A DNA stretch of 52,261 nt from Sphaeroforma arctica JP610 (taxonomy: Eukaryota). The notes below the pieces were generated by a model that saw only the letters and a program-made list of their open reading frames with translations, did not search any database and had not been told where the DNA came from. Shown here one piece after another: positions 547-43,559 of the stretch (its first letter is position 1; every line of letters starts with the position of its first letter). The DNA lies in assembly GCF_001186125.1 (NCBI RefSeq), contig NW_014040220.1, forward strand, positions 15,196-67,456. Reading direction: 5' to 3'. The position numbers and the translations under genes are program-made.

Positions 547-5017
<4,471 letters not shown>

Positions 5018-5970
5018 GGTGTTGTTTGTGTGGGTGTAAGGATCAAGCGTTCTTGTGAGTGTATGTATATCGTAGTTGTGTGGACCTTGTTGCTGTTTAC
5101 ACGCAATGTATAGTTACACAAACAAATACGTACCCCAACTATACATACGATAAATACATCTGTATTTATGTGTAAATATATCACACATTACTATGTGTAC
5201 TTAGATATATCACACATCAATATGTGTACATCGTAATAAATATCTCAGACATAGCAGCCACACATGAATCCATGAGCACTGTATTAATTTCCAGAAAACT
5301 AGGACAATTTGCCGGCCCCAAATAGCCTATAAAAATACTTTTTTTTTCAAAATAATAATAGACCCCACCAGATTTGATATTTGAGATTTCACATGGCGCA
5401 GCCGGAAAGCCATTGTGAATATATTTGGTGTAATCAATTCTAAAAATAGAATACCCTACTTCAGAGTTGTATGACTCAGTACTGTACTCAAATAACTCAA
5501 TCCTTTATAAGTGGAACTTATATTCAGGCCAATAGCGCCGTCCCAATATAAACGTTTATCGTAGCCGTATATTTTTTTCAGAGCTGATACGTTTCAATGC
5601 AAAACGTATTGATGTATTTATGTAAATAAATAATGTATGCATGTCTCGGCAAATACGATCGCGTGGACGTGCTGCCCACATTGCTTTTTTATATTTATTT
5701 GTTCAATAGGAGGCTATGATTTGAATATTAGACGGTACACATATTAAACGAAGGGCGTGTAAGTGATTGTATAGCTTAAATATACGATTCAATAATAGGC
5801 AAGCAAGTAGTACAGGTTGGCTTGTGTCTCTGTAGACAAGTCTGCATATCACTTACGAAGAAAGTGTACATACACAACCACAACAATATACGTGTGAGCT
5901 CTTATCGCATTCGTTTATCTCGTCCGATTAAACCGCACGCATCTAGACACCCTCACAGCCTACCGCCGAG
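5018..5970. promoter_or_regulatory. Probable bidirectional promoter/5'UTR region between divergent PUS7 and MPP-alpha
   Basis: About 950-bp AT-rich spacer between two head-to-head ATGs. Positional inference only. Confidence 0.5.
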
Positions 5971-6541
5971 ATGTCCTCAGCCCTTCGCAGTCGTATACTG
6001 CAGCCGCTGGCAGTGCAATGCCACGCACTCGCCTCAGCAATCGCACGTCCCCATACACATCACAGTAGACACACAATCAGTTCATCACCTGCACTACTCA
6101 GCCCATTCAAACGTACCCTAAGCACCTTGTTCACATCCGATCGCACAGTCGAGAGTGTGTCTGGCGAGCCAGAGAAAGTGTCTCTGAGCAAGCCGTTGAG
6201 GGGGTTCGAGAATCCCAAGTATGCTGTGGTTGATCTCAGCAGACCCCCAACCACCCAGATTACACAGTTAGACAATGGGTTAGCCGTGGCTAGTGAAGAC
6301 TCACCGGGAGCCTTTGCGGTCGTGGGGGTGTCTATGGAGGCGGGTACAAGGTTCGAGGAGAAGGACGCTACCGGCATATTCCACTTTCTGGATCGAATGG
6401 CGTATAAGAGTACTGTCAACCATAGCCAGGTATGGGAGGATAGTCAGAAGCACTCGCACAGGGAGATATCGTGCTCGTCAATTTAGATTAGTGTAGATAT
6501 ACAAACATTGTTGATATGTATATGTATGTATGTATGTATAC

Positions 6542-6595
<54 letters not shown>

Positions 6596-9500
6596 GTGTG
6601 TGTATGTANNNNNNNNNNNNNNNNNNNNGTTATAGTTATATATATATATACTATTTAATATAGTTATGTATTTGTATGTATGTTTGTATGTGTATGTATA
6701 CCTGTCTATTCCTATATTTATATCTATATTTTTGTATCTATATCTATTTTTACACCACTGCATCAGTGTCATGCTATATACATAACTACCATCCACTGAA
6801 GTATGTATTTAATTTGCCTGAACGTGTACAAACGTTTCACAGGTGCTGGTTTCTTTTTCCGTACATATGGAACAGGATGCATATAAACGTGTACAAATAG
6901 ATGCTTCAAATGTGTACTATTCCTGGAAAGAACCTGCACAAATGTACATACCCTGCTTATTACTGTGCTGTACACATGTGATTTGGAACAGCATACACTT
7001 ATTTATTTGATGTTTCTTACAATGTCTACTCAAATTGTGTATATAAATATATATATATATACATTATATTCGTGTGTGTGTGCGTGCATAATTTTACACG
7101 CGTGTTGAATCTACATAGATATTTATAGATATTGACAAGTTAGCTTCAACGTGGGCTTATTATATATATGTGTGTGTGTGTATCTATATATTTATATATA
7201 TAGGTATATATGTATATATGTTATATGTATATATGTATGTATATATATGTGTGTGTATATATATATGTGTATATGTATGTATACATATATATATGTGTGT
7301 GTGTGTGTATCTATATATATATATATATATGCTATATGTATATATGTATGTGTATATATATATATGTGTGTGTATGTATGTATGTGCGTGTGTATATCTG
7401 AAGTGCATGCATCGACACATGTACATACTGAACTGTAGCGTCCGCCTGCAGTGACTATATATCACTTATATATCACTGCCGCACCTACAACTTAAAACAT
7501 GCAGTAGTCCACCCTCTCATAACAAAAGTATCTGAATCACACCTTCTTTTCAATATCCTAGACCCCTATGTCTTCTACATACAATCCACCTTCGCATGAC
7601 AAAGGTATCTGAATCACACCTTCCTTTCAATATCCTAGACCCCTATACCTTCTACATACAGTCCACCTCCTCATAATAAAGGTATCTGAATCACACCTTC
7701 CTTTCAATATCCTAGACCCCTATGCCTTCTACATACAATCCACCTTCTCATAACAAAGGTATCTGAATCACACCTTCCTTTCAATATCCTAGACCCCTAT
7801 ACCTTCTACATACAGTTCACCTCCTCATAATAAAGGTATCTGAATCACACCTTCCTTTCAATATCCTAGACCCCTATGCCTTCTACATACAATCCACCTT
7901 CCTTTCAATATTTAAACTACGTACTCTCCATCGTCACAGCGTGAGCTGGTTGCTGAACTGGAGAAGCTCGGTGGCAGTGCCTTCTGCCAAGGCTCGAGAG
8001 ACTGCATGGTGTACTACATGTGTGTGTTCAACAAGGACGTGGATCGGGCTATGGAATTGTTGGCGGAGAGTGTGTTGAACCCTGCTTTGGCCCAGGTGTG
8101 TATGTGGACGGTATAGGCTGTGTGAGTTTAGGGGGGTTGATACATGCGTGCATATGTATATGTGTGTTTTATTTTAATTGGGTTGATTGCTGAGTCGTAT
8201 GCCAATGTCTTTTCCGATATACTTTTATGATTCGAACTTTACGCACAAGTATGTGTTTGCCTTGCCCTTGAAGCATAGCTGCATACGTACCTGCTCGCAT
8301 CAGCGTATGTATGTGAGTGGCAAGAGATAGCTACCTACTAGGTATGTTGTGTATATGAGTGGCAAGAGATAGCTACCTACTGTAGGTATGTTGTGTATGT
8401 GAGTGGCAAGAGATAGCTATCTACTGTAGGTATGTTGTGTATATGAGTGGCAAGAGATAGCTACCTACTGTAGGTATGTTGTGTATGTGAGTGGCAAGAG
8501 ATAGCTACCTACTGTAGGTATGTTGTGTATGTGAGTGGCAAGAGATAGCTACCTACTAGGTATGTTGTGTAATGAGTGGCAAGACATAGCTACCTACTGT
8601 AGGTATGTTGTGTAATGGTGGCAAGACATAGCTACCTACTGTAGGTATGTTGGCGTATGCTTCTATGCACGTCAGTCTATGTGTATGTTTGTGCGTGTAG
8701 TTATCAAGACCCACTACACTCAACACAGCCCAACATTATCTGGGCCTCGTTGTTTAATGATAGGTTTTACTCACCGCAGCTGAAGCTCTGTAGCATTTGT
8801 GTATCCATGCCATGTAGCCAATGTCTGTTTCTAGGCTATATTTGTATGCTCTATTTGAACAACCGAGCCAGACAAACCCTGAACCTTAAACCCTAGAACC
8901 CCATCCAGCTTGCTCCTATACCTATCTACCATACTCATCCCATAGTCTCCTGACAACCGTCCTACCTTTGCAGAGCGAGATAGAGGAACAGAGACAGCTG
9001 GTGCTGTTTGAGAAGGAGGATATGCTGCAACGGCCCGAAATCGCAGTCACAGAGCTGATGTACGAAGCCGCTTACTCACAGTCAAGTATGGGACAACCAC
9101 TGATCTGCCCAGACGACACCATCAACGCAATGACTCCCGAACTACTGCACAAGTACCACAAGCAGGTGTGTGCGCATTACGCAACTGTATATCTATGAAT
9201 GTATATATATGTGTGTGTGTGTGTGCGATAAAAATGTGCCCGTGTTTCAGAAGGTAGAGTGTGGTGTGGGCGACAGTTGAATGCATGGACCTGATTGTTT
9301 GGTTGATATGTGCTGTTGGCGTATAGCTCTGTGCATGCGCTCACTTTTGCATTGATATATACGTATGGATTTTTTCCCACTCGCGTCTATCAACATGCAG
9401 ACAAATAGACTGGTATCCGTGTTCCCACACTCATGCACATACATTCACTCACTCACTCACTCACTCACACATACCGACTTATGCACATATACACACTCAC

Positions 9501-12500
9501 ACACACGCACATACCCTTCCATTCCCAGTACTACATCGCTCCCAGGATGGTGGTAGCGGCCGCCGGCGTTCCGCACGAGAAACTGCTGTCACTGACCAAG
9601 CAGCACTTTGCCAACGTACCCAGTGCACCCGCCACACCTCTGCCCGAGTTTGCGCCTCAGACGTACGTAGGCGGGGCTTTGCAGAAGCACAGCGCCGATC
9701 TCAAGCACGCAAACGTTATCCTGGCGTATGAGGGCCTTCCCTGGGACCATGACGATATATATGCACTGTGTACGCTGCAGATGCTGATGGGTGGGGGTGC
9801 CTCGTTCAGTGCGGGTGGGCCGGGCAAGGGCATGCACTCTAGGCTTATGACCAGGGTGAGGGGTGGTGTGGGTGGGGAGGGTAGGTAGAATAGAGCAGGT
9901 TTAGGATTTTAAGGCGAGTTTAGAGTATGTGTTGCATGCACTAGGCTTATGACCAGGGTGTGTGGGTGGGGAGGGTAGGTAGAATAGAGCAGGTTTAGGA
10001 TTTTAAGGCGAGTTTAGAGTATGTGTTGCATGCACTAGGCTTATGACCAGGGTTTGGGTGGGGAGGGTAGGTAGAATAGAGTAGGGTAGAGTATGTGGTG
10101 TTGTATTGTATGCACAGTGGTTGGATATAGTACGATTTATGTGTTGTGTTTGGGTATGGAAGAAGTCGCACTATATATAGCGGTTGAGTATAGTTGGAGT
10201 TTTGTTGTGGGTGTACAGTTATTGTACCGGTGTCCGTAGTGTATAGTACAATATGTATGTAGGAATTGCATATAGCATATGCATATGTTTATTCATATTT
10301 ATTTATATATATATCTATATTATTTATATGTAGATGTATATTTATATGTATATGTATGTTGTACGTATTGTCCGTGTACGAGTGTACTCGAGAGTGTGCG
10401 TGGGCACTGGATGTGATGATAGCCGACCAAAGACCCCCCACTGATAAGTACTTAACTAGTCAGTGTAATGGTGTTGTTTGCAAATAAACAGAGTCTTGTG
10501 GTTTGCACAGACGCCTTTGATAGCCCCCCATGTTTTGTGAATTGACCTTGCCGTCGTCCTGCTATAACTAAGGTACTCCTCTCGTGGTGCGTTGTGGTGC
10601 GTTGGCTAGTATATTCACGCTGCCGTTACATCCGTTCAGCCCAAAGGAAGCTTCATACCAAGAATGGGCGCCAGTTGGTATAACTATCCTGACCTTCCCA
10701 TCGCCACCACACTATGTTGCTCACATCCCGTCCCACTATTGACCGTGCAGGTGCTAAACCGGTACTACTGGATTGAGAGCTGTATGGCGCAACTCACCAG
10801 CCACAAGGACACAGGCTTGTTCTACATGCACGGCACCTGCGACGACGAGAATGTGCACAACCTCATGCGGGTAAGCAACAACATGGCTTATGTGACATGT
10901 AACGTTATACATGGCAGCAGCAGACTATGCAGTGCTGAGCCACGCCCACTGTTGTATAGGGGCACGCGTAGCCATAGCCGTATCATGCAGAGTGTTGTAT
11001 TGATTTGATAACAGAGTGTGTTGTATTAATAACAAAGTGTGTTGTATTGACTTAATAACAAAGTGTGTTGTATAAATAACACAGTGTTGTATTGGGTTAT
11101 GACCAGAGCGTGTCTTGTGACCATTGTGCCTGGGCAAAGCATCTAGTCGCTTGTCCGTTGGTAGTTACACGCATCTGCAGGTACCGCTGGTGTTGACTAC
11201 ATCCCATGGGCATAATGAATGTGATGTCCAGTAGCCGTAGTAAGCTCTCACTAGTGTGTACTTAGTACCATACAGATTGGTTGTGTGTCAGTGTGTGTGT
11301 CAGAATTTACCTACTGAAGTATACTCCAGCGCCCATTTCTCACATCACTTGTGCCTGTTTGCCCGTGACAGTCCGAACTTCCGTGTCTCTCACATAGGTG
11401 TTGTACTCTGGCGTTTGTGGAGCGATTGTTCCGTGTGCTCGTATTTAACTACTATATAAATGTGTCTGTGTCTGTTTTTGTGTGCGTGTATGCGTTGTGT
11501 ATGTATATATATGTCTATCTATATATACATATATTTATACTATTGACACGTGTCTGTGCTTATTTCTGTAGGTGATGGAAGAAGAGTTCGAAGGCATGGC
11601 CAGCGCTGTCACAGATACCGAACTGTCGCGTGCGCAGAATCAGCTGAAGTCGCATCTGCTCATGAATTTAGAGTCGAGGTAAGTTATTGTCTGGGTACCG
11701 TTGTGTGCCTTACACCCTGTCCGTTGGGTTTGTTGTGCGACTTGTTCTATTCATACATCTTGATCGTCTTAGTGTTTAGAAACCCTGAAACCCTATACCC
11801 TTGATCGTCTTGTGACCCTGGCCAATAAAGGCGTTAGGCTTTGTATTAGGCCAGTATATTACAATTGCGTTTATAATCATGTATGTCCGTGGCTTGCACC
11901 TACTCTTTGGACTCATGATATGAGTGTACACTCTTGGATAAGTCCTTAATAATCATGTATGTCCGTGGCTTGTACCTACCCTTTGAACTCATGATTTGAG
12001 TGTACACACCTGGACAAGTCTCCATTCGCTGTGTATGCGGCTTGACCTGCTGGATTCGTATGGTCTTTCATACGTGTTGGTTCAATTGCCCAATAGTATG
12101 TTAAGTTATAGCCCATTAGTATGTTAAGTTATAGCCCATTAGTATGTTGAGCTATAGCCCATTCATACGTTAAGTTATAGCTCATTAGTACGTTAAGTTA
12201 TAGCTCATTAGTACGCTAAGTTTTTTTTCAGTACGTGATTAGTACTGCACACACCTCCAGGCGCATGGATAGCCTCTCTGCATGCCATAGGTGGCACTTG
12301 GTATGCTGCATCGCTCTTGCACGCATAAACCTTCTCCTCACTACACCAACTCGGTATTCATTCATTCGCTTGTCCTTGTTTGCCATCGCCGCATTCTCCG
12401 CAGAGTGGTCCAATTCGATGACATCAGCAAACAGATCTTAACCACCGGCAAACGCATCCAGCCGCTGGAGCTCTGCCGGCACATCGATCTGGTAACGAAG

Positions 12501-17561: not shown

Positions 17562-17811
17562 TGTCAAGACAAATCCAACACTGTCATAAATATTACGGAT
17601 GTTACAAATACAATATCAGTTCGGTACCAAGTATTGTACACAAAGATAAACTGACACCTGCCATAATGTCATAAGAGTTATGACACAGAACAGAAATACT
17701 TTGCACTTACGTGCGAACAATATACTTATAGATGGCTAAGTGAAGGATATATATAACCCTTACTTTACGATGAAATAAAGAGATACGTTACATGATTCAA
17801 TAGTTCTAACA
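17562..17811 (+). repeat. Copia 5' LTR (TG...CA)
   Basis: Direct repeat of 24000-24217. Followed by gattatgggcct (17812-17823), resembling the copia-type half-tRNAiMet PBS GGTTATGGGCCC. Confidence 0.88.
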
Positions 17812-17971
17812 GATTATGGGCCTATTAGCTTACTATTCTTCTTCATCCCCTACACGTATCTGTCTTTACTGTGTCACAACTCTCTTCTCTATTTCGCTGT
17901 CAGTTTGACATTGGCTCCGCCGGTCCATCTTTCTAGCTTCGAGTTCACATGCAGTCCATCACCACTCCTCC

Positions 17972-19281
17972 ATGGCTCCCCTCGCAATCGAAGTCTTCAC
18001 TCTTCCTTCCGAGTTTGCATTTCTCGATGAGGCTCCAACATTCCACGCACGTAACTGGCCAGGATGTCCCATTTACACCAGTCTCCATGCAGCCAACACT
18101 CATCTTCTTAGCATTACTGACATGCTCAAGAAATTTGGTTATGACATACCAGTGTCTACTGCTCAGGTTCTCGCGCATCTAGTTGTCTCTCGTTCCACCG
18201 CCAACCGTCTCAAGACACAAAATGACCAAACCTTCACTGACGCCACACACGACAAGCAAAAGGCCGTCGATGCTGAGTATGAGCTTAATCAAGCTCACAA
18301 TCTCCACGCAAGTGACCTCCGCGAAGTAAACATCCTTAAAACTCGCCTGGATGCTTCCCTCGCCAAACTCGCTGACACTGAGGCTCGCTAAGACGATTTC
18401 CTTATCAAACTCGCTAACACTGAAATTCTTCTTCAGTCTGCCCTTCAAGAAAATCGCCGCAATTCTGATCCTCACACTCGCCGTACTCCCATGACTCTCG
18501 CTGAAAAGTATAACATCACCCCAGCCAGGCCTACTCGATCTGTCACTGAATACCCCAAATACAAAGACTCCTACAAACGCTCTCAGCTTAAGGACCACAC
18601 TGATTCCGGCAACTGAATCGTCGTGCTTCGCATAGAGTTGGAGCATTATGGCGTTCTCCACCGTCTCCATCCTCAATGCAACGACCCTACTGTCGGCAGC
18701 GGACCAGACATGGCTGCTGACGCCAAATGTTGTCGCGTCCTCATCGACTCTATTGCTGAACCCCTCATCAACTCTGTCTAAAAAATCACTTTTCTAAACC
18801 CCCTCATACGTTCTTCCAACACATCTGTACCACTACCAACACCGACCGTCATGGCCGATTCTGGACTGCGTTGAAAGTACTCACAAGCTTTACTGCCACC
18901 GGTCCCCCCGACACTACTCTCCAGGCTCTTGAATAAATTCGGCAACGTCTTCTTTATGTCGGTGAAGTGATTTCTGACAAATACCTTACTTGTGCTTTGC
19001 TCTACAGTCTTGGTGACGAATACAACTGCTTACGTTCCGATAATTTTACCGTGACTTGTATACTCTGTCTATCGATGACGTATACACGAAAGTCCTGAAA
19101 TCTATCTCCGGTCTGTCTGCTTTCAAAACCCACCCTGACACCACTCAACCTCCTGTCAACAACGTCCCTCGTCGCAAAAATTGCATCATTTGTAACAAAT
19201 CTGGCCACAGTATCTTCGGTTGTCCTGACTCAATTTGTCGCCGATGCGGTTCTTCAACCCACAAAAGGCAATAAATGTCCT
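17972..19281 (+). pseudogene. Copia gag (disrupted) with two zinc knuckles
   Basis: CIICNKSGHSIFGC and CRRCGSSTHKRQ*C at the C-terminus. Confidence 0.8.
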
Positions 19282-19344
19282 GTCGACCGCACTACTTTAT
19301 CCTGCACCAAGGGTACTCGCACCGGCCACAATGCCACCGCTTGC

Positions 19345-22300
19345 ATGAGTTCTCATCGAAGCCACGGGGACCACTTTGCCATACTTTCTTCCTCCACTCT
19401 ACCTATTCCACATCAGCACACTATCCTTCCGCCTTCACACCACTATCGCCTTTACAGTACCATCTACCACACTGGACCTACATCTCCCTCCTTCGCCAAC
19501 TCTCTCATTGACTCCGGTGCTATGATTCACATCCGCAACACCACCGCCGGCGTCACAAAACTTGAAACCGGTCTTTTTGTTGTGGAATTCCCCGACAAAT
19601 CCCAACTCGCCCTCACTCATTGTGGTCACCTCCCAGGTCTTGGTGCCGTGCTTGTTATGCCTCAAGCAGATAAAGACATCCTCTCTATCCGTCTCTTACA
19701 ACGCCATGGGTTTACCATTACTTTTCCGGCCCAACGCGACGAGACTCAACCCACCGAGTGCAAACCCTAAACCCTAAAAACGACAACGTACAACACACCC
19801 CAGACACCAACGGCCTTTACAAACTTGCCACCTTTACACCCACCACTCTCGCCGACTGGCATGATATCTCCGGACACACACATCCCCGTATGCTCCGACG
19901 TACGTTACAGAATAATAACATCGACACTTATACACAACGCAGTGACAACACTGACAATTGGAAACTCAATCCCGTTTTATTTCAAAAACATGTCGTCCAG
20001 CCTTTTGGCAACGTCGACGTCGATCTTTTTGCTAGTACCAACAATGACCAGATGTCTCTTTATTGTAGTCTCGACCCTGACACACCTCTCCACGACGCTT
20101 TCGCCCAAACTTGGAATCAATCTGAATCTTATCTCTATGGTAATATTCCTTTCACCAAGAAGGTCTGAACCGCTGCGCTGAACAAGCTCGACGCCGAAAA
20201 CGGCTGCGTCACTGTTATTTTTCCGTTATCGCCCAACAACGTTTGCTTTTAACAGACACTCCGTCAACTTCATTTCCATTTTGAGGTCATCCGCACTTCC
20301 TCTGATATTTTTCTCCGCAATGGTGACGAAGTCGTCGGTACTCCACGTTGGCGCTACATTTGCGTCGCTCGTCTCGGGAATGTCGCCCATGCTGTACCCC
20401 ACACTGCCGAACTCTTGACTGCTCAAGCCGATGTGATCGCTCATCCTCGTGACGAAACATTTTGCCAGCCTTGTGTTCAAGGCAAAATGCGCCGCCGACC
20501 TATTTCTCACACCCAGAAAAACTCTTGTACCCGCCCACCCGTGGGTACCGTTTTCCATATTGATCTTGAAACAGGTCTTCCAGCATCCGTCACTAGTTGC
20601 ACATCCATCATTAAATACGTGAACGCTAACTCTGGTATGCCCTTTGTATATCCCTTGAAGACCAACGATGAAGCCGCCTCTACACTCGACTAATTTTACA
20701 CTGATATTGGCAAGGACAAGCTTTCTCGCCTTCGCGAACTGGAGTGTGATCGTGGTGGTGAATTCACCCCTCGTGTCTTTAAAGCCGTCAACACGGCCCA
20801 GCACGTTCAAGTCTTGTTTAACCCCACGAACTCCCCTGCTCCCCACGGCCTTGTCGAACGCACCAACAGCACTATCAAAGATATCATGCTCAGCTTACTT
20901 GCCCATTGCAAACAGCACTCCCAAATGTGAGCTGAAGCCATACGTCACGCTACCCTTCTGCGAGCCAATCAACACAACAAGCGCAATCCAGACAACAAAT
21001 CCTCCTGGGAATTGTTCTATGGTGCCAAACCCGACGCCCGCTTAAAAACTATCCACGTCTATGGATGCCAAGCGGCTTACATCAACCAAGACCGTTACAC
21101 CAAACTCGATGATCCTGCCAACATAGGCGTTTACCTCGGTCATGACACTCACTCCAAATACTACGACGAGTGCCGCATCCATAGTGTCAAAACCGGTCAA
21201 ATATGTCACTCTCGTGACGTCAAGTTCAACGACTGGGTGTTCCCCACCTGGTCAACCGTTGGCACCACACCTCTTCCTAAATTTATTACTCCACCCCAGG
21301 ACATCCCAACCATCCGCGAGCTCACCAACGCCTGTTCTGTTATTGCTTCTAAACAAGTTCCCCTTCTCTCTCCCACCGCTCAGTCCACCATTCACAGCAT
21401 TTCCTGCTATCCGTCCCCCTCTCACTCTGCCGCCCACACGTCTCATTCTCACACGGTCAACTCCGCTCAAGTCTCCACACCAACTCCAACTATTCATCCT
21501 TCAGAGGCGGACTCCGATCCAGGGGAGGCCTCGAATTCAGAGGAGCACTCCCACTCAGCGAAGAACTCACACCGAAGAGAGGCTTCCAACCACGGCTTTA
21601 ACCATGCAGATTCCGACGATGACGACTCCGATATTCCCACCGCCTTCTCCAATTCTGATTCCGCCGATGACTCTGATGATGGCGCCCCCGACATCCCCGA
21701 CCCACCACGCAGCCACACGTCCACCCCCCACTTGGAAGATACAGTCAATACCGCTCTTCGCTATCACATTGCTCGACACCCTTCTTCCCGCACCCTCAAA
21801 GGTCTTCTCCTCCCCCCCCCCCCCCCCCGGCCACCAATTCTGATCCTCTCAACCCACCTCTTCTACCCTATAATATGCGTATGACACGTCAACGTGCCAA
21901 ACAGATGGCAGCCCACAATATTCACGCCCAAAACAACATCACTGTCCCCCTACCCACTCCTTCCCCTTCAGTCTCCACCCCGCCACATGTGCACTGGTCG
22001 TCTGATCTTGAAAACACAGGCCTTCCCCTTAGTACTCGCCACTCACCTCTTGATCCCACTCGTCCGTTTGTCACCTCTACCAAAGAAATCGCACTCAAGC
22101 TGAAATACACCAACGCGGTTCATCACCTTAAACGCGCCAAGCGCGTCGACCAGGCTTCTAAACAACTCCGTCGCGCTCTCGTTACTCGAGCCCGTTTTCT
22201 CATACATCATATCGTCCACTCCATACAATCCAAATCACCACCCCGACTGGTCCTCTATCCGGAACCCTCTGACGACATTCCTATCAAAATCCATACCCCC

Positions 22301-23880
22301 CCTCCCCCCCCCTTCTCAATCACCACCTATTATTATACAATGCTACTGCTCACATAATATACGCCGCGTGGGAAGTGGTCCAATAAAACCCCCTTACCTT
22401 TGCTACTATTCGCGCCGCCCTTCGCAGCGACGACGCGGACCTATGGCGCACTGCTATCGAGCGTGAACTCGCTAGCCTTGCTAACTCTGGCACTTACGAT
22501 CTTCTCAAACCTGACGATATCCCAGACGACGCGTTTATCGTGTCTAGTAAATGGGTCTTTACAGTCAAGCTTATCGACGGCATTGTCGAATAAATACAAA
22601 GCCCAGCTCGTTGCCCGAGGTTTCTCCCAGACGCAGGGCATAAACTATGAGGAGACATTTGCTCCCACGTGCTTCCACGAGACTTTGCGTACTGTCCTCG
22701 CCGTTTTCAGGTTTTGTACTGTCCTCGCCTAAACCCTGAAACAAATGACGTTGATACCGCCTATTTCTACGCTGACCTTGACGAACCCATTTACATGCGC
22801 CCACCCTCCATATCTGCTTCGGTTGGTCTTCCAGACGATTACATTTTATCCCTTAAGAAATATCTCCTCCTCAAATCTAAATTTCTCGGCATGGGCTTCT
22901 CTCAAACAGATCCATGCATGTTTATTGTAAACGATCCTGACATCTCTTGTGTCGTTCTCTTGTATGTCGACGACATTATTATCTGCGGTCGTCATCCTTC
23001 CGACGTTCCTACCTTCAAGACTAAGATCCAATTCAGCTACAAGGATATGGGAAAGACACATTGGTTACTCAGTGTTCGGGTTTTTAACCACTGACCAGTC
23101 AATTAGCCTCGTCCAAGACAACTATGTCAAGGACGCACTCCACACTTTTGACCTCCAAGATGCCCACATTGCCCCCACGCCAGCTACACAAGACACTGTC
23201 TGCAGCAACGACGGCCCAAATACCCATGCGCCTACCGTGAATTGATCGGCACCCTACAGTATTTATCTGTTCTCGCCCGCATTGATGTTAGCTATTCTAT
23301 CAATAACCTCACACGCTATATGACCAACCCATCTCTCACACATTGGATTGCCGCTCAACGTAACCTCCGGTATCTTAAGGATACCCCCACTCTCGGACTT
23401 ACCTATCGCTACCAAGATGGGCCGCCCATCGCTGACGCCTATGTGGACTCTGATTATAACGCTTGCCCTGACACACGTCGTTCCACCAGCAGTTTCGTAC
23501 TTCGTATAAATGGCGTTCCTGATGTCTGGAAATCAAAACACCAGAAGACAGTTACTACCAGCACAATTGAGGCTGAATACTACGCCGCTTCCGAAGATGG
23601 CAAAAAAATAAATTTCTGTGGCTTCGCAACATACATAATGAAATCGGCTTCCCACAACATACCCCCACTCCTCTCTATTGTGACAACAAATCAGCCATCC
23701 ACGTCATCACTGACACCGGTACCATCAAATACCTTGAATATGTAGACATTCGCCTTCATCACATCCGTGATTTACAATCCCAAGGTGTTCTCCAAATCAG
23801 GTACACAATCTTGCTGATATACTTATCAAAAATACACCCCGTCCTACTCATTCTCGTCATACAGGCAACATGCTTACCAT
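19345..23880 (+). pseudogene. Copia pol (PR-INT[MTase insert]-RT-RNaseH), disrupted
   Basis: Motifs spread across ORFs 19345, 19758, 20415, 21012, 22400, 22669, 23242. Confidence 0.92.
19953..20378 (+). other. Dam-like N6-adenine DNA methyltransferase domain within Copia pol
   Basis: DNWKLNPVLF...DVDLFASTNN...YCS...DAFAQTW...YLYGNIPF...LNKL...VTVIFP...DIFLRNGDEVVGTPRWRY. One frame, with stops at 20166-20168 and 20250-20252. Confidence 0.85.
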
Positions 23881-23999
23881 CGTGCCTTCCACCTCAGTTT
23901 CCATTACCGGTAACAATCTAGGGGAGACGGTACAGTAAACTGTCAGTCAACTGCAGATTGTATCCTCTATACATATGCACACTGATGGTTTTAGGGTAG

Positions 24000-24217
24000 T
24001 GCCAAGACAAATCCAACACTGTCATAAATATTACAGATACAATATCAGTTCGGTATCAAGCATTGTTCACAAAGATGAACTGACACCTGTCATAGTGTCA
24101 TAAGAGTTGTGACACTTAGAACAAATATACTTTACACTTACGTGTGAACAATATACTTATAGATGACTAAGTGAAGGATATATATAACCCTTACTATAGG
24201 ATGAAATAAAGTTATAC
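24000..24217 (+). repeat. Copia 3' LTR, truncated at its 3' end
   Basis: tgccaagacaaatccaacactgtcataaatattac... matches the 5' LTR up to about gaaataaagttatac. Confidence 0.85.
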
Positions 24218-24402: not shown

Positions 24403-25905
24403 TTGGACTGGACACTGTACCGCTTCCTGACGATACGAAACCGGAAGAGGTGGATCAGAGATGTGAATGATTGCCAGCGTGCGTCTAGCGGTATATCAGA
24501 ATTTCCAGCCAAAGTAAAAGGTCTCTCAACATTTGAACATTTCTTCCCTATGGAATGGGCTAAGAACAATCTCATATCTATTACGAACATAAATCTGAGG
24601 GCACTAGGAAAAGCGGAGATGGACTACAATGAGTCCATGGTGTAGCTGGCTATATGTATATTAATATGCCTATCGTTAGATACAAGTCCTACTTAGTTAC
24701 GCAACAAGAAAAGGATGATAAAGGCTATGGCATACGGACTTTGTGGCCAGCATGGTATGATAATATGGAGAAGTCATTCTTTGCTTCTGACAAAATCTGT
24801 ATTGATGAAACAATGATGGCGTGGGACGTACCCACTGCCTACGCCAACATACACGTGCCTCGCAACCCCAAGCAATACGGCAACGAATGGAAAACAATAG
24901 CCTGCTGTGAGACCAATATAATATTCAGCGTTGATTTGGTCGAGGGGAAGAATAGGCCAGACTACTTGCCACTTTTAAAGTTTAGCGAGCATCTGGCTAC
25001 GGTTACGGTTGTGCTACGATTATGCCAGTATATTGTTGGTTCTTCTAGACGAGTCATAATGGATTCCGGGTTCTGCGTTCTCAAAGTATTGTACTACCTA
25101 CTGACAGTCGGACATAATAACATCGTTATAATTAAGAAGAACAAATCTGGCCTAAGGGATTGCCAGGAGATCGTATGAAGGACCATATGATGGATCGCCC
25201 TTTGTTTGATGTCCAAACACTGCAAGGAAAGTTCAACTATGTTGGTGAGAAGGATGAGAGCTTGAAGTTTTATTTACTGGCTTTCAAATTACTATATATA
25301 CATGCCTATGTGTATGGTAGCGTTCGCCGCGAGGGACACACATTATACCGTTACACAGCAGGGGTAGGGTATGAGATGCAGTACCCGAAGGTGTATTCAG
25401 ATTACTATAATCAAGGTAGAGCCGCTGTAGATATTAATATTAATCTGAGGAGCAACACGCTATCTATTGAAGAAGGTATATTTACACGTAGTTGGGAGCA
25501 GCGAACATTAAATTTCTTCATCGACATTACCATCACTAATTCAGTGATGCCAAGCAAGCATCTACATATCAACAGCAAGACTATTCCAGAACATCATCTC
25601 CTATTTGTTTTAGGGTTTAGGGTTTAAAAACTTATCATGACGGCGTTTCACTCCGTCGTCGGGCCGTAGCTGAATCCGAATGCAACTTTAGAGAACGAAA
25701 AAAGAATGAAGGTGCATATAACATCAACAAGCGAAAATTCAATGAGGTACGTACCAGCTCGCAATCAATGGTATGCACTGGGGCCGGTTGCAAGCTGCCG
25801 AGAGGTAAGAGTAGACGCAAAACGTACTGTGTATGTTCGCCCTGGAAAACTGTATGTACTGATTGTTATATAGATCATAAGCTACAGAAGCTTGGGCACT
25901 ATTAA
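24403..25905 (+). mobile_element. piggyBac-like DDD transposase pseudogene
   Basis: ICIDETMMAW, PRNPKQYG, VVLRL, RRVIMDSGF, YNQGRAAVD, TRSWEQR, and a Cys-rich tail CTGAGC...KTYCVCSP...CTDCYIDH. Frameshifted. No TIRs recognised. Confidence 0.85.
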
Positions 25906-34348: not shown

Positions 34349-37300
34349 ATGGTGTCTTGCGCTGTTGCCATATGTGGCAATAGAAATGGTAGTCTATTCA
34401 TTGGCGAGAAGTTGTCTTTCCTTCGTTTTCCTGCGGCGAAAGACTACCCTAAGTACAGGTCGAACAAGCAAGGACGGCTTGCAAAACGGAGAACAGATGA
34501 ACCACTTGGATCGAAGCATGCTTCCGATTATTCAGTGCCGAGGATGGACTGACTGCAGGTGTCCACCAACTTTTGGAAAAGAAACGATCATAGAGTCTGC
34601 AGCGTTTATTTCCACCCCTCAGTACTTGTGGTAAAAGAGAAGGGTACGCATTCAGCCGTGATCGGCGCCACCCCTACCATGTATCTTAAGAAGTTGGCGG
34701 CCGATGCTGAGCCAATTGTGGAACTGTCAAGTAGACAGAGACTTCTGATGATACCTTACAGTGAGATCTTTGAATTGGATAGTTCACTAGGCAATCCATT
34801 GTCTGGAAAACGACTGCTTGAAACTAATCCAACAGCAGATCGTGCACGCAACGTGAACGCTTAACTAACGAGACTATTCACATATCACGACAGCGAGAGG
34901 ACGAAGAAGATCACATTAGCTCGTTCAAAGAAGTGATAGGCAAGCTGAGTTGGGATTGCATAAATAATGGACATGGGAGTTAAATGCTGATACGATCATA
35001 ATGTCACGGTCGATTAAATCGGAGATTGCCTCAGTTCCATTTTTACAACGTGTGCATCTAATACTTGGAAGTTCGGATGGATACATAGATATAGTCGTTT
35101 ATACTCCTTCACACACAGCCGTCAAAAATACTTGCTATAGTAACGATGAATCTTATGTTTATTCTGTTACCCATCTTGAGAAACAACTCGGCATAGCACA
35201 TAAGTACAGTACATTGCTCAAGCGGATCCGTTTTATTGAGGACACGACAGATGCACTGATACCAAGCAGTAAGCCGACTCAAACGGCAAAATCAGAATGT
35301 AATATTCCACGTGAGCGTGGGGATTATCTGCTACGTGGTGACGTCGGTCGAGAAAGAGCCGTATTTTACTACCACTTAGCCGAACAAATCGAGATGCTGG
35401 AAGTCAACCGGCACAAAGGAGATTCCCAGAAAATTCCTTTGTGTTAGCATATGCGCAACAAATGTATTCCCGTGTCCCTGGACATTACCATAGGATGAGA
35501 GAGAATATGCTTTATACCTTTCTACCGGATAAAAGGACCCTATTTTCTCGCACTAATAGTGATGCTTTACCGGCGGACTGCATATTCGCGGGTACAGGAT
35601 CCGCACATGCTGCTATATTGGGATCAATAGTTAGCGCTAAAACATCTACATCAACGATACACTACAAAGAAACGGAAATCAAGCGTAAGTTGTTCTCACG
35701 TACGTTTGTGTACGCACTTCACCTTGATGAAATCAACATTCGTCCAACGAATAATTTCAGCAATATAACCGGATTCTTTGGCCCGGCGCACAACAACCCC
35801 GATGCGCTTGCAAATCACATGCAAGTATTTCTGATGACACCTTTAAGTGGGCCAAAAACATCGCTTGCTCTTATGGCGCGACCTGTAGCTAAACAGACTA
35901 GGCTTGATTTATTTTTATACACAATGGAGGCCATATCTAAGAGTCAGGAAGCAGGAGTCACGTTGTGCCCTGTAATTTTTTTTATGGCTGTAGCGTTAAT
36001 CGGAAGGCCATGTGACTATTGGTGTTACATAATACTGATCCCGAACCACCAGGACGTCGACTTGAGTTGCCTCAGCAGCGTCTCCCGACATCTGTAAATG
36101 TAAATGGTGTAAAATTATTTCCGTTGTTTTATCTCATACACATCGTAAAGTGTATAAGAAACAATCTTGTGCGGAAAGGGCACAGATTTAGGTATCCTGA
36201 GATGAAGCGGAGTACGGGATATACTCTACCGGAAGGCACGTGTGACATAGTTTGGGTCCGTAGATTGTATAATAAGTACAAAAACAAACTATTCTCCCCT
36301 GTGCGCATCAATCGTGTTACAGTATGGCCTAGTAATCTGGAAAGGCAACAAGTGCGGCCAGCCTTGTTGATTTTCTCGACGGAGATTACAAATGCCCTAA
36401 AACGTGAATTCGGTGGTATGGCCTCTGGTACATATTTGTTCCTTGAAATGGTACAAAATTTTATTATTACACCGTTTATAGCAGTCAGTAGTACGAAAGG
36501 AAAACATAAACGGTTGCCTCGGGCGGATCTATTCAGACACCCAGCAGATCATCGTCTGAGAGAAGCTGAAAAATTAGCAGCGTGGCTGCAAGATGCTTGG
36601 TATGCCGGTCTGGCCAATGCTGATCCAAGCATTATTGTAATATCTGACGAAGAAGACGACGCCGATGAGGAGGAGGAGATTGAGGTAAGTAATAGAAAGT
36701 ATTCGTATGTATTTTATTTTTCTTTTCTAAAGGTAGGATTTTATGAGTCTCTCGGATTCGCCCCAACGAAACATACCATAGTTTCTAATAGAGCGACAAC
36801 GAAACACTAAATAAAATCCTTTCGGCGAAAACAGTACTGAGAGGATTATATATAGGCAATGTCTCAGCCTCACAATCCCTCAGAGTATTGCTGTTTTCAC
36901 GAAGCAAACCTAACTTTACTAAAAGACTCATTTCGTTATTTACTTTTATATTTTACTATACTTAGACTTAACCTAAGCGTTTATTTACTCTAAGGCGTTA
37001 ATATCCCTTTGATAGACCAAAACATACACAGTAGATAGTAGAGCTAGTCACAATACGCCGCATGCAAGTGATAACAGTGGGAGTGCCAATTCAAACACCA
37101 CTAGTGCAAATACTGAGAGCAGCACACCAATTACAAGTTCATCACGTGTAGAAAAAAGAGGCCGCAAGCCTCTGGAAGATGGCCTCGTGCGATACATGCT
37201 CCTCTCCTTAGATTTTAAGTGTGTTTTACCGGGCCGTATTAATAACGACCCGATAGAAGTGAGCTTCTCGATAGCGCGTGCCATGGCTGGTGGAAATCAC

Positions 37301-38418: not shown

Positions 38419-39310
38419 TGTAAAAGTCGGTCTCCTCTAGGCTGACTATACGATATCAAGACGTTTACGTTAATAATACAATACGTTAAACGTTTAAATG
38501 CAAAATGTTAAAAATAAGTTTAGCTTCAACCCTTGATAGTGAGCAAAAGATTAGGGGATTTTAGACTAAGACTATTGTCTATATGCTCCGCTCTAATCAC
38601 TCACTACTTCGGTCTAGATTTATTTATGTTTTAGTTAATAAGACTAGATATCTTTTCATTGGACGCATATTTTACATTTCACGCCTCGAAACAACTATCT
38701 ACTCAAATTAACCAATAAAATATCTCTAAGTCCAACTTAAGAAAATAAAAAAATAAAATCAAAACACCAAGCTGATGCAGTATACATCTGCACCTAAACC
38801 CCATCACTTAGTACCTAGCTCCCCATCCCATTTAAGGCATAGACGGGCACATCTAGTTGGCTGGCTAGGAGGAATCAAAACCAGGTTGCCCTAAATTGTA
38901 ACAACCCTGATCCTGTCCTTTTCTTAGTGGATTATCTTTCTCTGAGATCATTATCGAATTATAACATAGGTTTGTACCAACAACCATTTCATGCCTGAGA
39001 CCCTCTCTCATGGTACTCCCGTTAATTAGAGATTCCCAAAGTGTCATTTTCAGGTGTCAGATTTGTATCATTCCTATATTTTGTACAATTCTAATTTCAG
39101 TGGAAAAACCAATCTATATTTGGAAAACCACCTAATTGTCCACAGTAGAGTCCCATACTCTACTGAGTACTATCACATGTTCAGAATCTTGAATATATCA
39201 ATTCTTGTTTAAACGTATTCCAGTATTATCAGTATAAACGTTAATATGATAATACGTTTATAAAATGCGTTAACTGTGCAACTACTATTAGGAACCCGCT
39301 ATTTTTTACA
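38419..39310 (-). repeat. Gypsy 3' LTR
   Basis: Direct repeat of 46651-47353 with an extra ~200 bp (about 38456-38660). Confidence 0.93.
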
Positions 39311-39484
39311 TTGCCCCCCCCCCCCCGATTTTTCAATGTTGGTTTATATGTGGTATTAGCACATCGACTCAAAAAGCTCACATGAATTGTACAAACGAAA
39401 AGAAAAGAAACGGGTTTCAATCATATAATGGCCTCAATGCTTATGTTATATTCTCTTAGACAAAGTATACTTAGACGTTATAAG

Positions 39485-39845
39485 TTACTCGGTTACTCTA
39501 TTACGTCTGGGCTTTGGTCCTTGTGGTCCCCGATGGTGGATGGGACGTCTCTTAATGACTTTTGGAGGTACGTACATTCCATGCTGTTTAAAGCTGGGAA
39601 TGTATGATGTCTGTGGATAGATCTTAACCACGTCGGGTCGCTTATTCGATGGTAAGATTGCTTCTGCATCAGCCTTATTTTTGTGTAAGAGTTTGCAAAA
39701 CTTCTTATTAAAAGCCTTTAGTACATCCGGATCATCAAATGCTGATGGTGGAATACCATACTGTGCTCCATCGGCGAACTCCGTAGCGTAATATGTCATA
39801 TCCTCATGTTTGTACTCCCTAGAATCTTTTTAAACTTGTAAGACA
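39485..39845 (-). pseudogene. Chromodomain-like C-terminus of Gypsy integrase (frameshifted)
   Basis: YKFKKIL/EYKHEDMTYYATEFADGAQYGIPPSAFDDPDVLKAF follows the chromodomain pattern loosely. Confidence 0.55.
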
Positions 39846-41058: not shown

Positions 41059-41305
41059 TCATCAATTGCTTAAGCAATCGAGTTTCCCTGTCAGACCGCA
41101 TTTTGTTGTAGAAGGCTTTCGCTAGTGATGCGCTCCTCTTTGATTCCTTTGAATTTGGCTGTATCTCGGTAACACGTACTGCAGGTGCTTGTGTTGTTCC
41201 AGCCTCCCGTTGAGACTTAGATGTCAAGAATGGAATCTTGATTTCTTCAACATCACGCTTGAAGGTCTCGAATTGTGTCCACTTGGTTGTTCCAACTGAA
41301 CCTAT

Positions 41306-41701
41306 TCAACATATAATAGTATGTCGCCAAGGCGTCTTTTGGACTGCACGGGTACCCTGGTAGAGAAAAGTATCTACCTTTCTATCCACATAGATCGGCT
41401 CACATTGTATCATTGAGATCAACTGTGGTAGCCATTTATCTGAGTGTCTAAGGGGACAATACAACGTGATGGCAGCATTTTGAATATGTGCATAATTTAG
41501 CAACTGTGGTATTAATAACCATGGAGGATTTGCCCAGGCATTCTCGTTAGACAAGTCAATCTGGAATCTATCTCCTTTCGGATGTTCCAGTGTCCGGTAC
41601 CTTGGTAGTTGCGCATTGTGATGGGCAGCAAACATATCTATGGTATGTGGTCCATGTATGTTGTCTGCGATCTTAAACCACCGAGGATTGACCATCCAAT
41701 C
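41306..41701 (-). other. Dam-like N6-adenine DNA methyltransferase domain within Gypsy pol
   Basis: DWMVNPRWF...IDMFAAHHNAQLPRY...DRF...AWANPPW.LIPQLL...ITLYCP...KWLPQL...DTFLYQG..VQKTPWR. Confidence 0.9.
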
Positions 41702-43188
41702 GTAACTAGCAACTCCCTAACCCTCTTATTAAAGTCTGGTACGAAGCGAGACAACATGTAGGGTAAGTGATTGTGAATACCCGGTATGTGTGTTATGCTG
41801 AAAGAAAATTTTGCGATCGTGTCATGCCATCGACTGACTAACTGTGAGTTAGGTTTCATGTCCTTTAGGTGTTGCAATGATTTCTGATCACATAGCACAT
41901 TGAAGTGTGTGCCATATAGATAATCCTTAAAATGAGTGAGTGTAGTAACAATAGCCAAAAGCTCTTGTTGCACGGTTGGGTAATTGATCTGAGACGAATT
42001 CATAGCTCTACTAAAGAACTGTACATATCTCGGTTTCCCATCAATCTTTTGATACAGAACGCCGCCGAGTGCCATGTCGGATGCGTTTGTTGCTACCCTG
42101 AATGGAATACCATCCTTTGGTGGTTGGACTACTGGTGCCTGTTGAACCACTGTTTTGAGCTGCTTAAATGCGTCATCACATTCTTTGGTCCACAGCGCGC
42201 CTAGTTTGCCTTTATGACATCTCAAATGTCCAAAGGGCTTTAAGTAACTTGCCAGGTGTGGTACTCCGTCAGATAAAAATTTGACGATTCCGCACATGCT
42301 GTTGACATCCTTACCCGCGGTAGGAGTTCTCCAGTCTAGCAAGTGTCCGACCTTCCCGGGATCGATCATGATTCCATCCCCGGATACTCGGTAACCCAAC
42401 AGTTGAATTTCGTTAAAACCGAAGTGACATTTCTTACTGTTGATCTTAGAGTTGTGCCTGTTGAGTCTGTCTAGAACCTCTCGCACAACTTTGTCGTGCT
42501 CCTCTTTGGTTTTGGTGAATATCACAATGTCATCAATGTATTCTTGTACATTGTCCATGTCCCTAAACAAGTCTTGCATAATTTGCTGAAAGAACGCAGG
42601 CAATATGTCTAACCCAAGGGGGGCACCTTTGAACGAATATTGCTGACCCTCCCAGGTAAAGGTGAAATACTTCCGATGTGGTCGGTAGATCTTCATCTGG
42701 TGGTAGCCCTGCGTCAGGTCGATAGTGGAGAATATCTTAGCTCCCTCCATGCGCCTGAGTAGTTCGTTTATCCTTGGTAAGTGAAAATTGTGTGTCGGTA
42801 TCAAAGCGTTAATTGGGCTCATATCCAAACACACCCGAACTTTCTTCAGTGTCCCGTCAGAGTTGAATTGGTCGACGGCTAAAAGCGCTAGATTGACGGG
42901 AGTCGGCTCATAGTTGACTGCGATCACTCCGTCATCTAACCATGCTTTAACCTGTTCTCGTACGACCTGCTCATAACGCCATGCAACATAGTTACGTGTA
43001 AGACACTTCAGCTTCGAGAAATCTACTCTCGTCAGGTCTAGACTAACGTATCCGTTACTGAATTTGAACTTAGCCCAGTCCGTGATCCGAATCTTGTCAT
43101 TCTCGAAAATCAAGTCCTTGAGTTTCTTTGTAAAGTGAGGGATTATCTCCTTCACAGTCTTCGAAGGTTTATATACCGGTTTCAACAA
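41638..43188 (-). CDS. Gypsy reverse transcriptase and RNase H
   Basis: RVCLDMSPIN, DLTQGYHQM, YIDDIVIF, ATNASDMALGGVLYQ, NYPTVQQELLAIV, HIPGIHN. Confidence 0.96.
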   Translation of the reverse strand: MLKPVYKPSKTVKEIIPHFTKKLKDLIFENDKIRITDWAKFKFSNGYVSLDLTRVDFSKLKCLTRNYVAWRYEQVVREQVKAWLDDGVIAVNYEPTPVNLALLAVDQFNSDGTLKKVRVCLDMSPINALIPTHNFHLPRINELLRRMEGAKIFSTIDLTQGYHQMKIYRPHRKYFTFTWEGQQYSFKGAPLGLDILPAFFQQIMQDLFRDMDNVQEYIDDIVIFTKTKEEHDKVVREVLDRLNRHNSKINSKKCHFGFNEIQLLGYRVSGDGIMIDPGKVGHLLDWRTPTAGKDVNSMCGIVKFLSDGVPHLASYLKPFGHLRCHKGKLGALWTKECDDAFKQLKTVVQQAPVVQPPKDGIPFRVATNASDMALGGVLYQKIDGKPRYVQFFSRAMNSSQINYPTVQQELLAIVTTLTHFKDYLYGTHFNVLCDQKSLQHLKDMKPNSQLVSRWHDTIAKFSFSITHIPGIHNHLPYMLSRFVPDFNKRVRELLVTIGWSILGGLRSQTTYMDHIP

Positions 43189-43553
43189 AGTTCAATGTTA
43201 GTAGGTAAGCCTGTAATTGTGATACCTAATGACAATAAATCACCCATACCTACTATGAGATCATAGTCTGGTGAAGTGATACATATGACTGCCTTAGTAA
43301 CTGTAGTACGTTGGTCCGTCAATGTAAACCTAAGATCGATTGCCATTTCTCTGCAAGTGATCTCTCTTTCATCAGCCAATTTCAACATAGTTGGCTCTGA
43401 CTTGCGAGTAGCGTCTGTGATCATACAGAATCTAGAGCATGTACATGAAATTTGCGAGTCCAGATCTAACAGCACTTTTATTTCATGTCCGTTAACTCGT
43501 ACGTCAAGAATTACACGCTCGTCTCGAGGTGCTTCCTTTTGTCTTAGTGACAA
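43182..43553 (-). pseudogene. Gypsy aspartic protease (DLD in place of DxG, frameshifted from RT)
   Basis: VRVNGHEIKVLLDLDSQISC...YDLIVGMGDL. Confidence 0.8.
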
Positions 43554-43559
43554 GACCCG

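What the first reader, a model, noticed from the sequence alone, without database searches (positions are those of the whole stretch)
19857..20474. Copia MTase is inserted in frame inside the integrase HH-CC zinc finger
Seen: GLYKL...DWHDISGH (His codons at 19860 and 19875) and CQPCVQGKMRRRP (20463-20474) are in the same frame, with the whole MTase-like domain between them. There are two point stops and no frameshift. Established: in Copia these halves (WH..LGH and CxxC..GK) are normally only a few tens of residues apart. Inference: the mature integrase would carry a tethered MTase able to modify cDNA ends or target DNA at integration. The catalytic motif reads NIPF instead of NPPF, so it may be a variant, decayed, or binding-only.
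Basis: partly seen in the sequence, partly recalled or inferred. Interest (0 to 1): 0.85.

Follow-up and report, generated by a model that had tools for sequence, protein, structure and literature searches.

The report
Methyltransferase inside a Copia integrase
A broken jumping gene, likely from a single-celled relative of animals, carries a domain predicted to fold as an adenine methyltransferase in the middle of its integrase's zinc finger; distant family members share this layout, which would let new copies arrive chemically marked as active DNA.

Summary
In a decayed Ty1/Copia LTR element, about 167 extra residues lie in frame between the His-His and Cys-Cys halves of the integrase zinc finger (His2 to Cys1: 196 aa, against 29 in 5 of 5 ordinary Copia proteins). 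The insert is a Dam/DIRS-type adenine methyltransferase: Pfam PF05869 E 0.003; model pLDDT over 90; nearest solved fold PCIF1, Z 10.1. It is a family trait, not a one-off. Two further copies lie in the same organism's runs, and seven Sphaeroforma arctica proteins (26-48% identical) match it; SARC_09551 holds HH-MTase-CC unbroken with 195-aa spacing. NIPF is shared by 3 of 3 copies and by an intact Gypsy DAM-LTR, so it is not decay. Trees lean towards capture from a Gypsy DAM-LTR; one lies in this window. DAM-LTRs were described in a May 2026 preprint, but only as Ty3/Gypsy, so this is a new variant. Catalysis, substrate and zinc-finger closure are untested. The scan had noted a Gypsy DAM-LTR and Copia cytosine methyltransferases on other DNA, not this layout.

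The parts
17562..17811 (+). 5' LTR (first ~70 nt apparently missing)
   Evidence: 198 of 216 aligned bases match the 3' LTR, K2P 0.089; ends in CA at 17811
17812..17822 (+). primer-binding-site-like motif
   Evidence: follows the LTR end; likeness to the copia half-tRNA-Met site is recalled, not tested
17972..19340 (+). gag, broken, with Cys-His knuckles near 19180-19330
   Evidence: translation; no Pfam hit
19378..19761 (+). aspartic protease (DSG motif near 19510); frameshift to the integrase frame near 19760
   Evidence: tblastn to P0012 and P0007
19809..19952 (+). integrase N-terminal half: GLY motif, WHxxxGH (His 19860, 19875) and the canonical His2-Cys1 interval
   Evidence: weak gag_pre-integrs match E 0.055; aligns with canonical Copia; similarity to canonical interval reached by 3 of 200 shuffles
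19953..20381 (+). Dam/DIRS-type N6-adenine methyltransferase domain; DLFAS at 20022, NIPF at 20142-20153; stops at 20166 and 20250
20382..20462 (+). 27-aa linker, predicted helix
   Evidence: same length in P0008 and P0010; helix with pLDDT 83-93; no significant likeness to the canonical interval (75 of 200 shuffles) or to Gypsy post-MT sequence (49 of 200)
20463..20486 (+). CxxC-x-x-GK half of the zinc finger
20541..21245 (+). integrase core with D(20562), D(20748), E(20856) in D,D(35)E spacing, then SH3 domain; two more stops
   Evidence: aligned to canonical Copia; SH3_retrovirus E 7e-10
22373..23804 (+). Copia-type reverse transcriptase and RNase H, frameshifted
   Evidence: RVT_2 E 2.5e-7 and 7.4e-8; tblastn to canonical Copia E 2e-41, no hit from two Gypsy polyproteins here
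23920..23927 (+). polypurine tract
   Evidence: sequence
24000..24217 (+). 3' LTR (aligned part; probably begins near 23928)
41288..41716 (-). second Dam-type methyltransferase (NPPW) between RNase H and integrase of a neighbouring Gypsy element; likely kin of the donor
   Evidence: (Dam E 1.9e-5)

Best explanation
This is a dead copy of an old family of Ty1/Copia retrotransposons whose integrase holds an adenine-methyltransferase domain between the His and Cys halves of its zinc finger; the domain was likely captured once from a Gypsy DAM-LTR and would likely travel with integrase and methylate adenines in the element's own new DNA. Shown: layout, family-wide sharing, kept motifs. Predicted: methyltransferase fold. 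Inferred: a single capture at the Cys knuckle, with a new linker and the downstream CxxC serving as the Cys pair. Inferred: because the domain sits inside the N-terminal domain, protease processing cannot separate it from integrase without splitting the finger, so it would be packaged one-to-one with integrase and enter the nucleus with the cDNA. Inferred: 6mA laid on reverse-transcription intermediates or fresh cDNA would be kept by host AMT1 and mark the new insertion as transcribable, the model proposed for Gypsy DAM-LTRs. My odds: family-wide layout 0.95; methyltransferase fold 0.95; Gypsy donor 0.65; active on the element's own DNA 0.5.
For: Two further copies at about 85% identity cover the domain core, and one contig bridges HH side, domain, CC side and integrase core. 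Seven of the 150 hits shown are S. arctica proteins of this layout, whole or in part. HH lies just upstream of the domain in P0007, P0010 and P0012, and CxxC-GK just downstream in P0008 and P0010; spacing is 195 aa in P0010 at 26% identity. Differences between copies favour third codon positions: 12 of 22 (p 0.033) and 13 of 22 (p 0.012), like the integrase core, 13 of 21 in a partial list. All 5 Copia rows covering them keep DLF and the motif-IV Asn, whereas 23 of 60 rows in that alignment have Phe there. Model pLDDT over 90 for residues about 50-210; best matches PCIF1 (Z 10.1, rmsd 3.0, 137 aa) and phage N6-adenine methyltransferases. In the 36-row tree all 3 Copia domains lie in a starred set (98/94) with 8 Gypsy-labelled rows. 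Holding the 3 together gives lnL 13.2 higher in the 72-row set. A Gypsy profile beats the best of 8 DIRS profiles for 5 of 8 Copia rows. The preprint reports 6mA in S. arctica and more methylated, more expressed DAM-LTR copies.
Against: No activity has been shown for any retroelement DAM; expression in dam-minus E. coli gave no 6mA. Iyer et al. judged DIRS domains likely inactive and PCIF1-derived. The motif varies within the family (NIPF, NPIW, NQP). The free 72-row tree splits the Copia rows and puts the window's domain on a long branch among DIRS-labelled rows (97/69, bootstrap unsettled), and 3 of 8 Copia fragments score higher on some DIRS profile. One copy is 33 nt shorter inside the domain's first half and 99 nt shorter in the later part, both in frame, which suggests the domain can erode. 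Every copy seen is broken or a fragment. The host is inferred from named relatives.
Confidence: 0.5

Rival explanations
1. The domain is a non-catalytic nucleic-acid or SAM-binding module that helps integrase hold cDNA or steers it to a chromatin type, for example 6mA-marked or transcribed regions.
For: Iyer et al. 2016 call DIRS domains likely inactive; negative E. coli assay; position inside integrase suits a targeting role; motif varies among subfamilies.
Against: Motif-IV Asn and DLF kept in 5 of 5 Copia rows; NIP/AIP-aromatic motifs are active in Erm enzymes.
Confidence: 0.25
2. The enzyme methylates the element's RNA (genomic RNA, cap-proximal adenosine or the RNA strand of the hybrid) inside the particle, and its place in integrase only secures packaging.
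For: Nearest solved structures are PCIF1 and the rRNA enzymes KsgA and ErmC'; lack of activity on E. coli DNA.
Against: Nearest viral models are annotated DNA N6-adenine methyltransferases; DAM-LTR insertions carry more 6mA in DNA.
Confidence: 0.15
3. A tolerated passenger: the domain was gained by template switching with a co-packaged Gypsy RNA and was kept only because its frame must stay open for integrase, RT and RNase H.
For: Frame constraint alone removes stops; one copy shows in-frame shortening; long branches in the trees.
Against: Fold, DLF and Asn are kept across 25-48% identity; third-position bias equals that of the integrase core; spacing stays 195-196 aa.
Confidence: 0.08
4. A secondary insertion of a DIRS or Gypsy fragment into this one copy, or an assembly chimera.
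For: None beyond the decayed state of the copy.
Against: Contigs from 4 of 4 runs laid match the window with 0 differences in overlapping pieces across the region; other copies and distant proteins share the layout; no flanking repeat over 6 nt.
Confidence: 0.01

Closest known systems
DAM-LTR retrotransposons, ichthyosporean lineage (Fernandez-Moreno et al., bioRxiv 10.64898/2026.05.21.726589; whole main text read, figures and supplements not seen)
   Same: LTR element with a PF05869-type DAM domain in pol; likely the same host group (Sphaeroforma); the domain groups with Gypsy DAMs, including one in this window.
   Different: All lineages in the main text are Ty3/Gypsy, defined by RVT_1; 'copia' and 'Ty1' occur 0 times. 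Here the backbone is Copia (RVT_2, PR-IN-RT-RH), the domain lies inside the integrase zinc finger, and the motif is NIPF or NPIW rather than NPP.
MT domain of DIRS retrotransposons (PMC3783388, PMC4738411; passages read)
   Same: Same domain family: DW-L-P, DLFA, DAF-W, Y-N-P motifs; 32% identity to a DIRS pol.
   Different: In DIRS it follows RNase H in an element with a tyrosine recombinase and no DDE integrase.
PCIF1/CAPAM cap-specific adenosine N6-methyltransferase (6irx, 6irv)
   Same: Best structural match, Z 10.1, rmsd 3.0 over 137 aa.
   Different: 15-18% identity; cellular RNA enzyme of about 480-500 aa in the solved chains, against a bare 140-aa core here.
Retrotransposon-borne cytosine methyltransferases (de Mendoza et al. 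2018, PMC5890265; passages read)
   Same: A DNA methyltransferase captured into a retroelement ORF and kept under selection.
   Different: C5-cytosine enzymes in LINE, DIRS and Gypsy; that paper states Symbiodinium Copia lacks a DNMT.
Canonical Ty1/Copia integrase (P0158-P0162)
   Same: GLY-WHxxxGH, CxxCxxGK, D,D(35)E, SH3.
   Different: His2-Cys1 spacing 29 aa against 195-196 aa; no methyltransferase match (best E 0.07).

Membership tests
Ty1/Copia LTR retrotransposon | order gag-PR-IN-RT-RH | tested here: met
Ty1/Copia LTR retrotransposon | RVT_2-type reverse transcriptase | tested here: met
   Pfam E 7e-8; tblastn to Copia E 2e-41, none from two Gypsy polyproteins
Ty1/Copia LTR retrotransposon | two direct LTRs | tested here: met
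   198 of 216 identical; ends incomplete
Ty1/Copia LTR retrotransposon | PBS, PPT, 5-bp target duplication | tested here: inconclusive
   PPT and PBS-like motif seen, PBS identity recalled; outer ends too damaged to read a duplication
Ty1/Copia LTR retrotransposon | integrase with HHCC ligands and D,D(35)E | tested here: met
   all ligands and the triad present; spacing of the finger is not canonical (196 vs 29)
DAM-LTR (Fernandez-Moreno 2026) | DAM (PF05869) domain in the pol of a non-DIRS LTR element | tested here: met
   E 0.003 here and 1.2e-5 for P0010, both weaker than the preprint's 1e-5 cut; fold agrees
DAM-LTR (Fernandez-Moreno 2026) | Ty3/Gypsy RVT_1 backbone of the five described lineages | tested here: not met
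   so not a member of those lineages, though it works like them
DAM-LTR (Fernandez-Moreno 2026) | Asn-Pro-Pro catalytic triplet | tested here: not met
   NIP in 3 of 3 copies and P0006; NPI in P0010; Asn kept
DAM-LTR (Fernandez-Moreno 2026) | domain inside the retroelement DAM clade, near LTR-borne DAMs | tested here: inconclusive
   starred with Gypsy rows, split; no prokaryotic outgroup
DAM-LTR (Fernandez-Moreno 2026) | host with AMT1 and raised 6mA and expression of the insertions | not testable with these tools
   no genome held, no methylation data
N6-adenine methyltransferase (active enzyme) | Rossmann-like fold with SAM-binding and motif-IV loops | tested here: met
N6-adenine methyltransferase (active enzyme) | methyl transfer to adenine N6 | not testable with these tools
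   needs an assay
DIRS retrotransposon | RT-RH-MT pol with tyrosine recombinase instead of DDE integrase | tested here: not met
   DDE integrase, direct LTRs, RVT_2
Integrase HHCC zinc finger (functional) | His and Cys pairs close on one zinc | tested here: inconclusive
   both halves low confidence in two models

The most novel reading that the evidence does not exclude
A Copia lineage took an adenine methyltransferase from a Gypsy element and fixed it inside the integrase zinc finger, making a single-chain integrase-methyltransferase that writes 6mA on its cDNA or insertion site as part of the intasome, so that each new copy is born with the host's active-gene mark.
Probability: 0.35. Interest if true: 0.85.

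Novelty: new variant of a known kind. Interest (0 to 1): 0.62.

Why it matters
It extends adenine-methyltransferase capture from DIRS and Gypsy to the Copia superfamily, apparently by LTR-to-LTR transfer, and puts the enzyme at a site where it cannot be cut away from integrase. That points to a role in the pre-integration complex and gives a compact natural fusion for testing what retroelement DAM domains act on, which is still open. It also bears on the 2026 preprint. These domains score under its Pfam cut-off and its classification used RVT_1, so some S. arctica elements counted as DAM-free LTRs may carry one; its public Nanopore data can test this. It also suggests that the integrase zinc finger tolerated a 167-residue insertion over long evolutionary time.

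Tried and rejected
No genome is held for the window, so copies came from protein searches and laid contigs. Word-based search of longer proteins with the insert region found nothing among 596 candidates. The profile search of longer proteins gave only 5 canonical Copia proteins among 3046 candidates; this is weak evidence of absence. Pattern scans found no relative in metagenomes (94 and 98 candidate stretches) or viral contigs (1); these reach close relatives only. PDB sequence searches gave no significant hit. NCBIfam gave only weak TIGR01712 hits, E 0.02-0.11. The 520-aa model from 12 rows was unusable (pLDDT 44). The profile-profile comparison was circular and is not used. Complex prediction of the two zinc-finger halves was not available, so there is no verdict on closure. 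The idea that the post-MT linker duplicates the helices before the insert was not supported (88 of 200 shuffles). The idea that the insert begins with DIRS RNase H residues was dropped, since those residues align with canonical Copia. No RNA holder was listed. No tRNA gene in the window. The Atlas feature search for P0010 gave no usable hit; its structure search gave DIRS/RT-linked MT clusters. Literature searches for a Copia adenine methyltransferase (listings seen) found none; subscription journals and the preprint's supplements were not visible and could hold it.

Full report
Observation. The reading frame that starts GLYKL at 19812 carries WHDISGH (His 19860, 19875) and CQPCVQGK (Cys 20463, 20472), with two stops between them (20166, 20250) and no frameshift. 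Five canonical Copia polyproteins have 29 residues from the second His to the first Cys; here there are 196. The extra sequence is a methyltransferase core (about 19953-20381) and a 27-residue linker.

The element. LTRs at 17562-17786 and 24000-24217 are 198 of 216 identical, K2P 0.089. Between them lie gag, protease, integrase with an intact D,D(35)E triad and SH3 domain, then RVT_2-type RT and RNase H. RT matches canonical Copia at E 2e-41 and neither of two Gypsy polyproteins. The copy is dead: stops and frameshifts occur throughout.

The insert is a retroelement adenine methyltransferase. Pfam Dam matches at E 0.003, under the cut-off. A DIRS pol aligns at 32% over 111 aa. A full phmmer scan gave 341 proteins at E<=0.001, of which 150 were shown; Pfam on 33 proteins and my profile identify them as DIRS- or Gypsy-borne MT domains. 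A model from 35 rows, with X at the stops, has pLDDT over 90 for the domain and 83-93 for the linker helix, but low confidence for both zinc-finger halves. Its best matches are PCIF1 (Foldseek E 9e-5; VIA Z 10.1, rmsd 3.0, 137 aa), then KsgA, ErmC' and T4/E. coli Dam, and phage N6-adenine methyltransferases.

It is a family trait. Contigs from 4 of 4 runs laid show the window's copy plus diverged copies. One 1268-nt contig bridges the HH side, the domain, the CC side and the integrase core; it is 33 nt and 99 nt shorter at two places, both in frame. Two copies at about 85% identity cover the catalytic region. Neither differs at the N, I or F codon of NIPF, and one has a silent change in the Pro codon. 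Both have a sense codon at the first stop, and one shows a sense codon at the second. Listed differences (22 of 26 and 22 of 27) fall at third positions in 12 of 22 and 13 of 22 cases, similar to 13 of 21 in a partial list for the integrase core; this is a codon-position count, not a dN/dS. Seven of the 150 hits are named Sphaeroforma arctica JP610 proteins. P0010 (SARC_09551, 26%) has protease region, HH, domain and CC unbroken with 195-aa spacing. P0007 and P0012 have HH before the domain; P0008 has the domain's end, CC and integrase core; P0006, P0009 and P0120 are shorter pieces. These are gene predictions on decayed copies, so their gaps may be artefacts. None of the other 143 shown had HH or CC next to the domain by my patterns. 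The host is therefore likely Sphaeroforma, an ichthyosporean; this is inference.

Insertion point. The sequence between His2 and the domain resembles the canonical His2-Cys1 interval (3 of 200 shuffles), and the linker does not (75 of 200). P0010 reads CEAW and P0012/P0120 read CNDY just where the canonical CEAC lies, directly before the domain. I infer that the capture happened at the Cys knuckle. The downstream CxxCxxGK, kept in 3 of 3 rows that show it, likely supplies the Cys pair, since the upstream Cys is lost in the window and P0007.

NIPF. It occurs in 3 of 3 DNA copies, in P0006, and in the stop-free 1208-aa chromodomain Gypsy protein P0011. Erm enzymes use NIPY and AIPY in the active site (PMC9386465, PMC8906542, passages). 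All 5 Copia rows keep DLF and the Asn. The motif is thus a variant compatible with catalysis, not proof of it.

Origin. The same window holds a Gypsy element with a Dam domain (NPPW) between RNase H and integrase, the published ichthyosporean layout. From 157 stored proteins I kept 78 domains by coverage and dropped 6 fragments under 100 aa. In the 72-row tree P0010 groups with Gypsy rows (99/85-93), while the window's domain and P0006 sit on a long branch among DIRS-labelled rows, with bootstrap unsettled. Holding the three Copia rows together gave a tree 13.2 log units better, p-AU 0.72. In a 36-row set (3 Copia, 11 Gypsy-labelled, 22 of 57 DIRS-labelled; long rows left out) all three lie in a starred set, 98/94, with 8 Gypsy rows. 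Six of those 8 are Gypsy by Pfam, one by window context, one assumed; the DIRS label is a default for most rows. A Gypsy profile beat the best of 8 DIRS profiles for 5 of 8 Copia rows; the three misses are N-terminal halves. A Gypsy donor is favoured, not proven.

Mechanism. From established Copia biology (recalled), protease releases integrase from the polyprotein, and integrase carries the cDNA to the nucleus. A domain inside the N-terminal finger would stay on integrase. The preprint on DAM-LTRs (whole main text read) reports 6mA at active genes in S. arctica and more methylated, more expressed DAM-LTR copies. It proposes methylation of reverse-transcription intermediates maintained by AMT1, but found no activity in E. 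coli. I adopt that model at 0.5. A binding-only role (Iyer et al., PMC4738411, passages) gets 0.25, RNA methylation 0.15, and a passenger 0.08. Whether the finger still binds zinc is open.

Novelty. Adenine methyltransferases are known in DIRS (PMC3783388, passages) and, since May 2026, in five Gypsy-type lineages. That preprint's main text never mentions Copia or Ty1, classifies by RVT_1 and uses E<1e-5, which these domains miss. Six searches showed no Copia case or zinc-finger insertion; the preprint's supplements were not visible. The scan's notes held nothing by sequence or place, one Gypsy DAM-LTR and, in the 8 of 43 notes shown, Copia elements with cytosine methyltransferases. Verdict: real, family-wide, a new variant of a known kind; interest 0.62.

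Noticed in passing
window 38661-47240, minus strand: Ty3/Gypsy element with LTRs near 38661-39209 and 46691-47240 (89-98% alike in pieces) and a Dam domain with NPPW at 41716-41288 between RNase H and integrase: the published DAM-LTR layout, decayed.
   Followed up: partly
P0040, P0044 (unnamed assemblies): 2100-2400-aa Gypsy-type polyproteins with protease, an Exo_endo_phos endonuclease, then Dam, then RT, RNase H and integrase; a LINE-like endonuclease plus Dam upstream of RT is an odd layout.
   Followed up: no
P0039, P0017: Dam domain near the N-terminus, apparently ahead of a protease-like stretch (read by eye).
   Followed up: no
P0010 residues 187-190; P0012, P0120: A Cys (CEAW, CNDY) is kept right before the methyltransferase at the canonical first-Cys position, offering an alternative zinc ligand.
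   Followed up: partly
window 20008-20083 and 20257-20460, contig of 1268 nt: A second copy is shorter by 33 and 99 nt, both multiples of three, as if the insert eroded while the integrase frame was kept.
   Followed up: no
window 21260-22370: Long Ser/Pro/His/Asp-rich stretch between integrase SH3 and RT, about 370 codons, with C-runs and frameshifts.
   Followed up: no
window 17562, 17787-17811, 23928-23999, 24218 on: The two LTRs do not share their outer ends: the 5' LTR lacks about 70 nt present after the PPT, and the 3' LTR diverges about 25 nt early; no target duplication could be read.
   Followed up: partly
window 24633-25627: piggyBac-like transposase remnant (Pfam DDE_Tnp_1_7, E 3e-20) right of the element.
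   Followed up: no
window 5947-9888 (+) and 4124-5113 (-): Exons of host genes among long TA/TG microsatellite introns: a peptidase M16 (E 1e-8) and a pseudouridine-synthase-like exon (recalled, not tested).
   Followed up: no
window 35342-36810: Two ORFs with a P-element/THAP9-like transposase motif (recalled, not tested).
   Followed up: no
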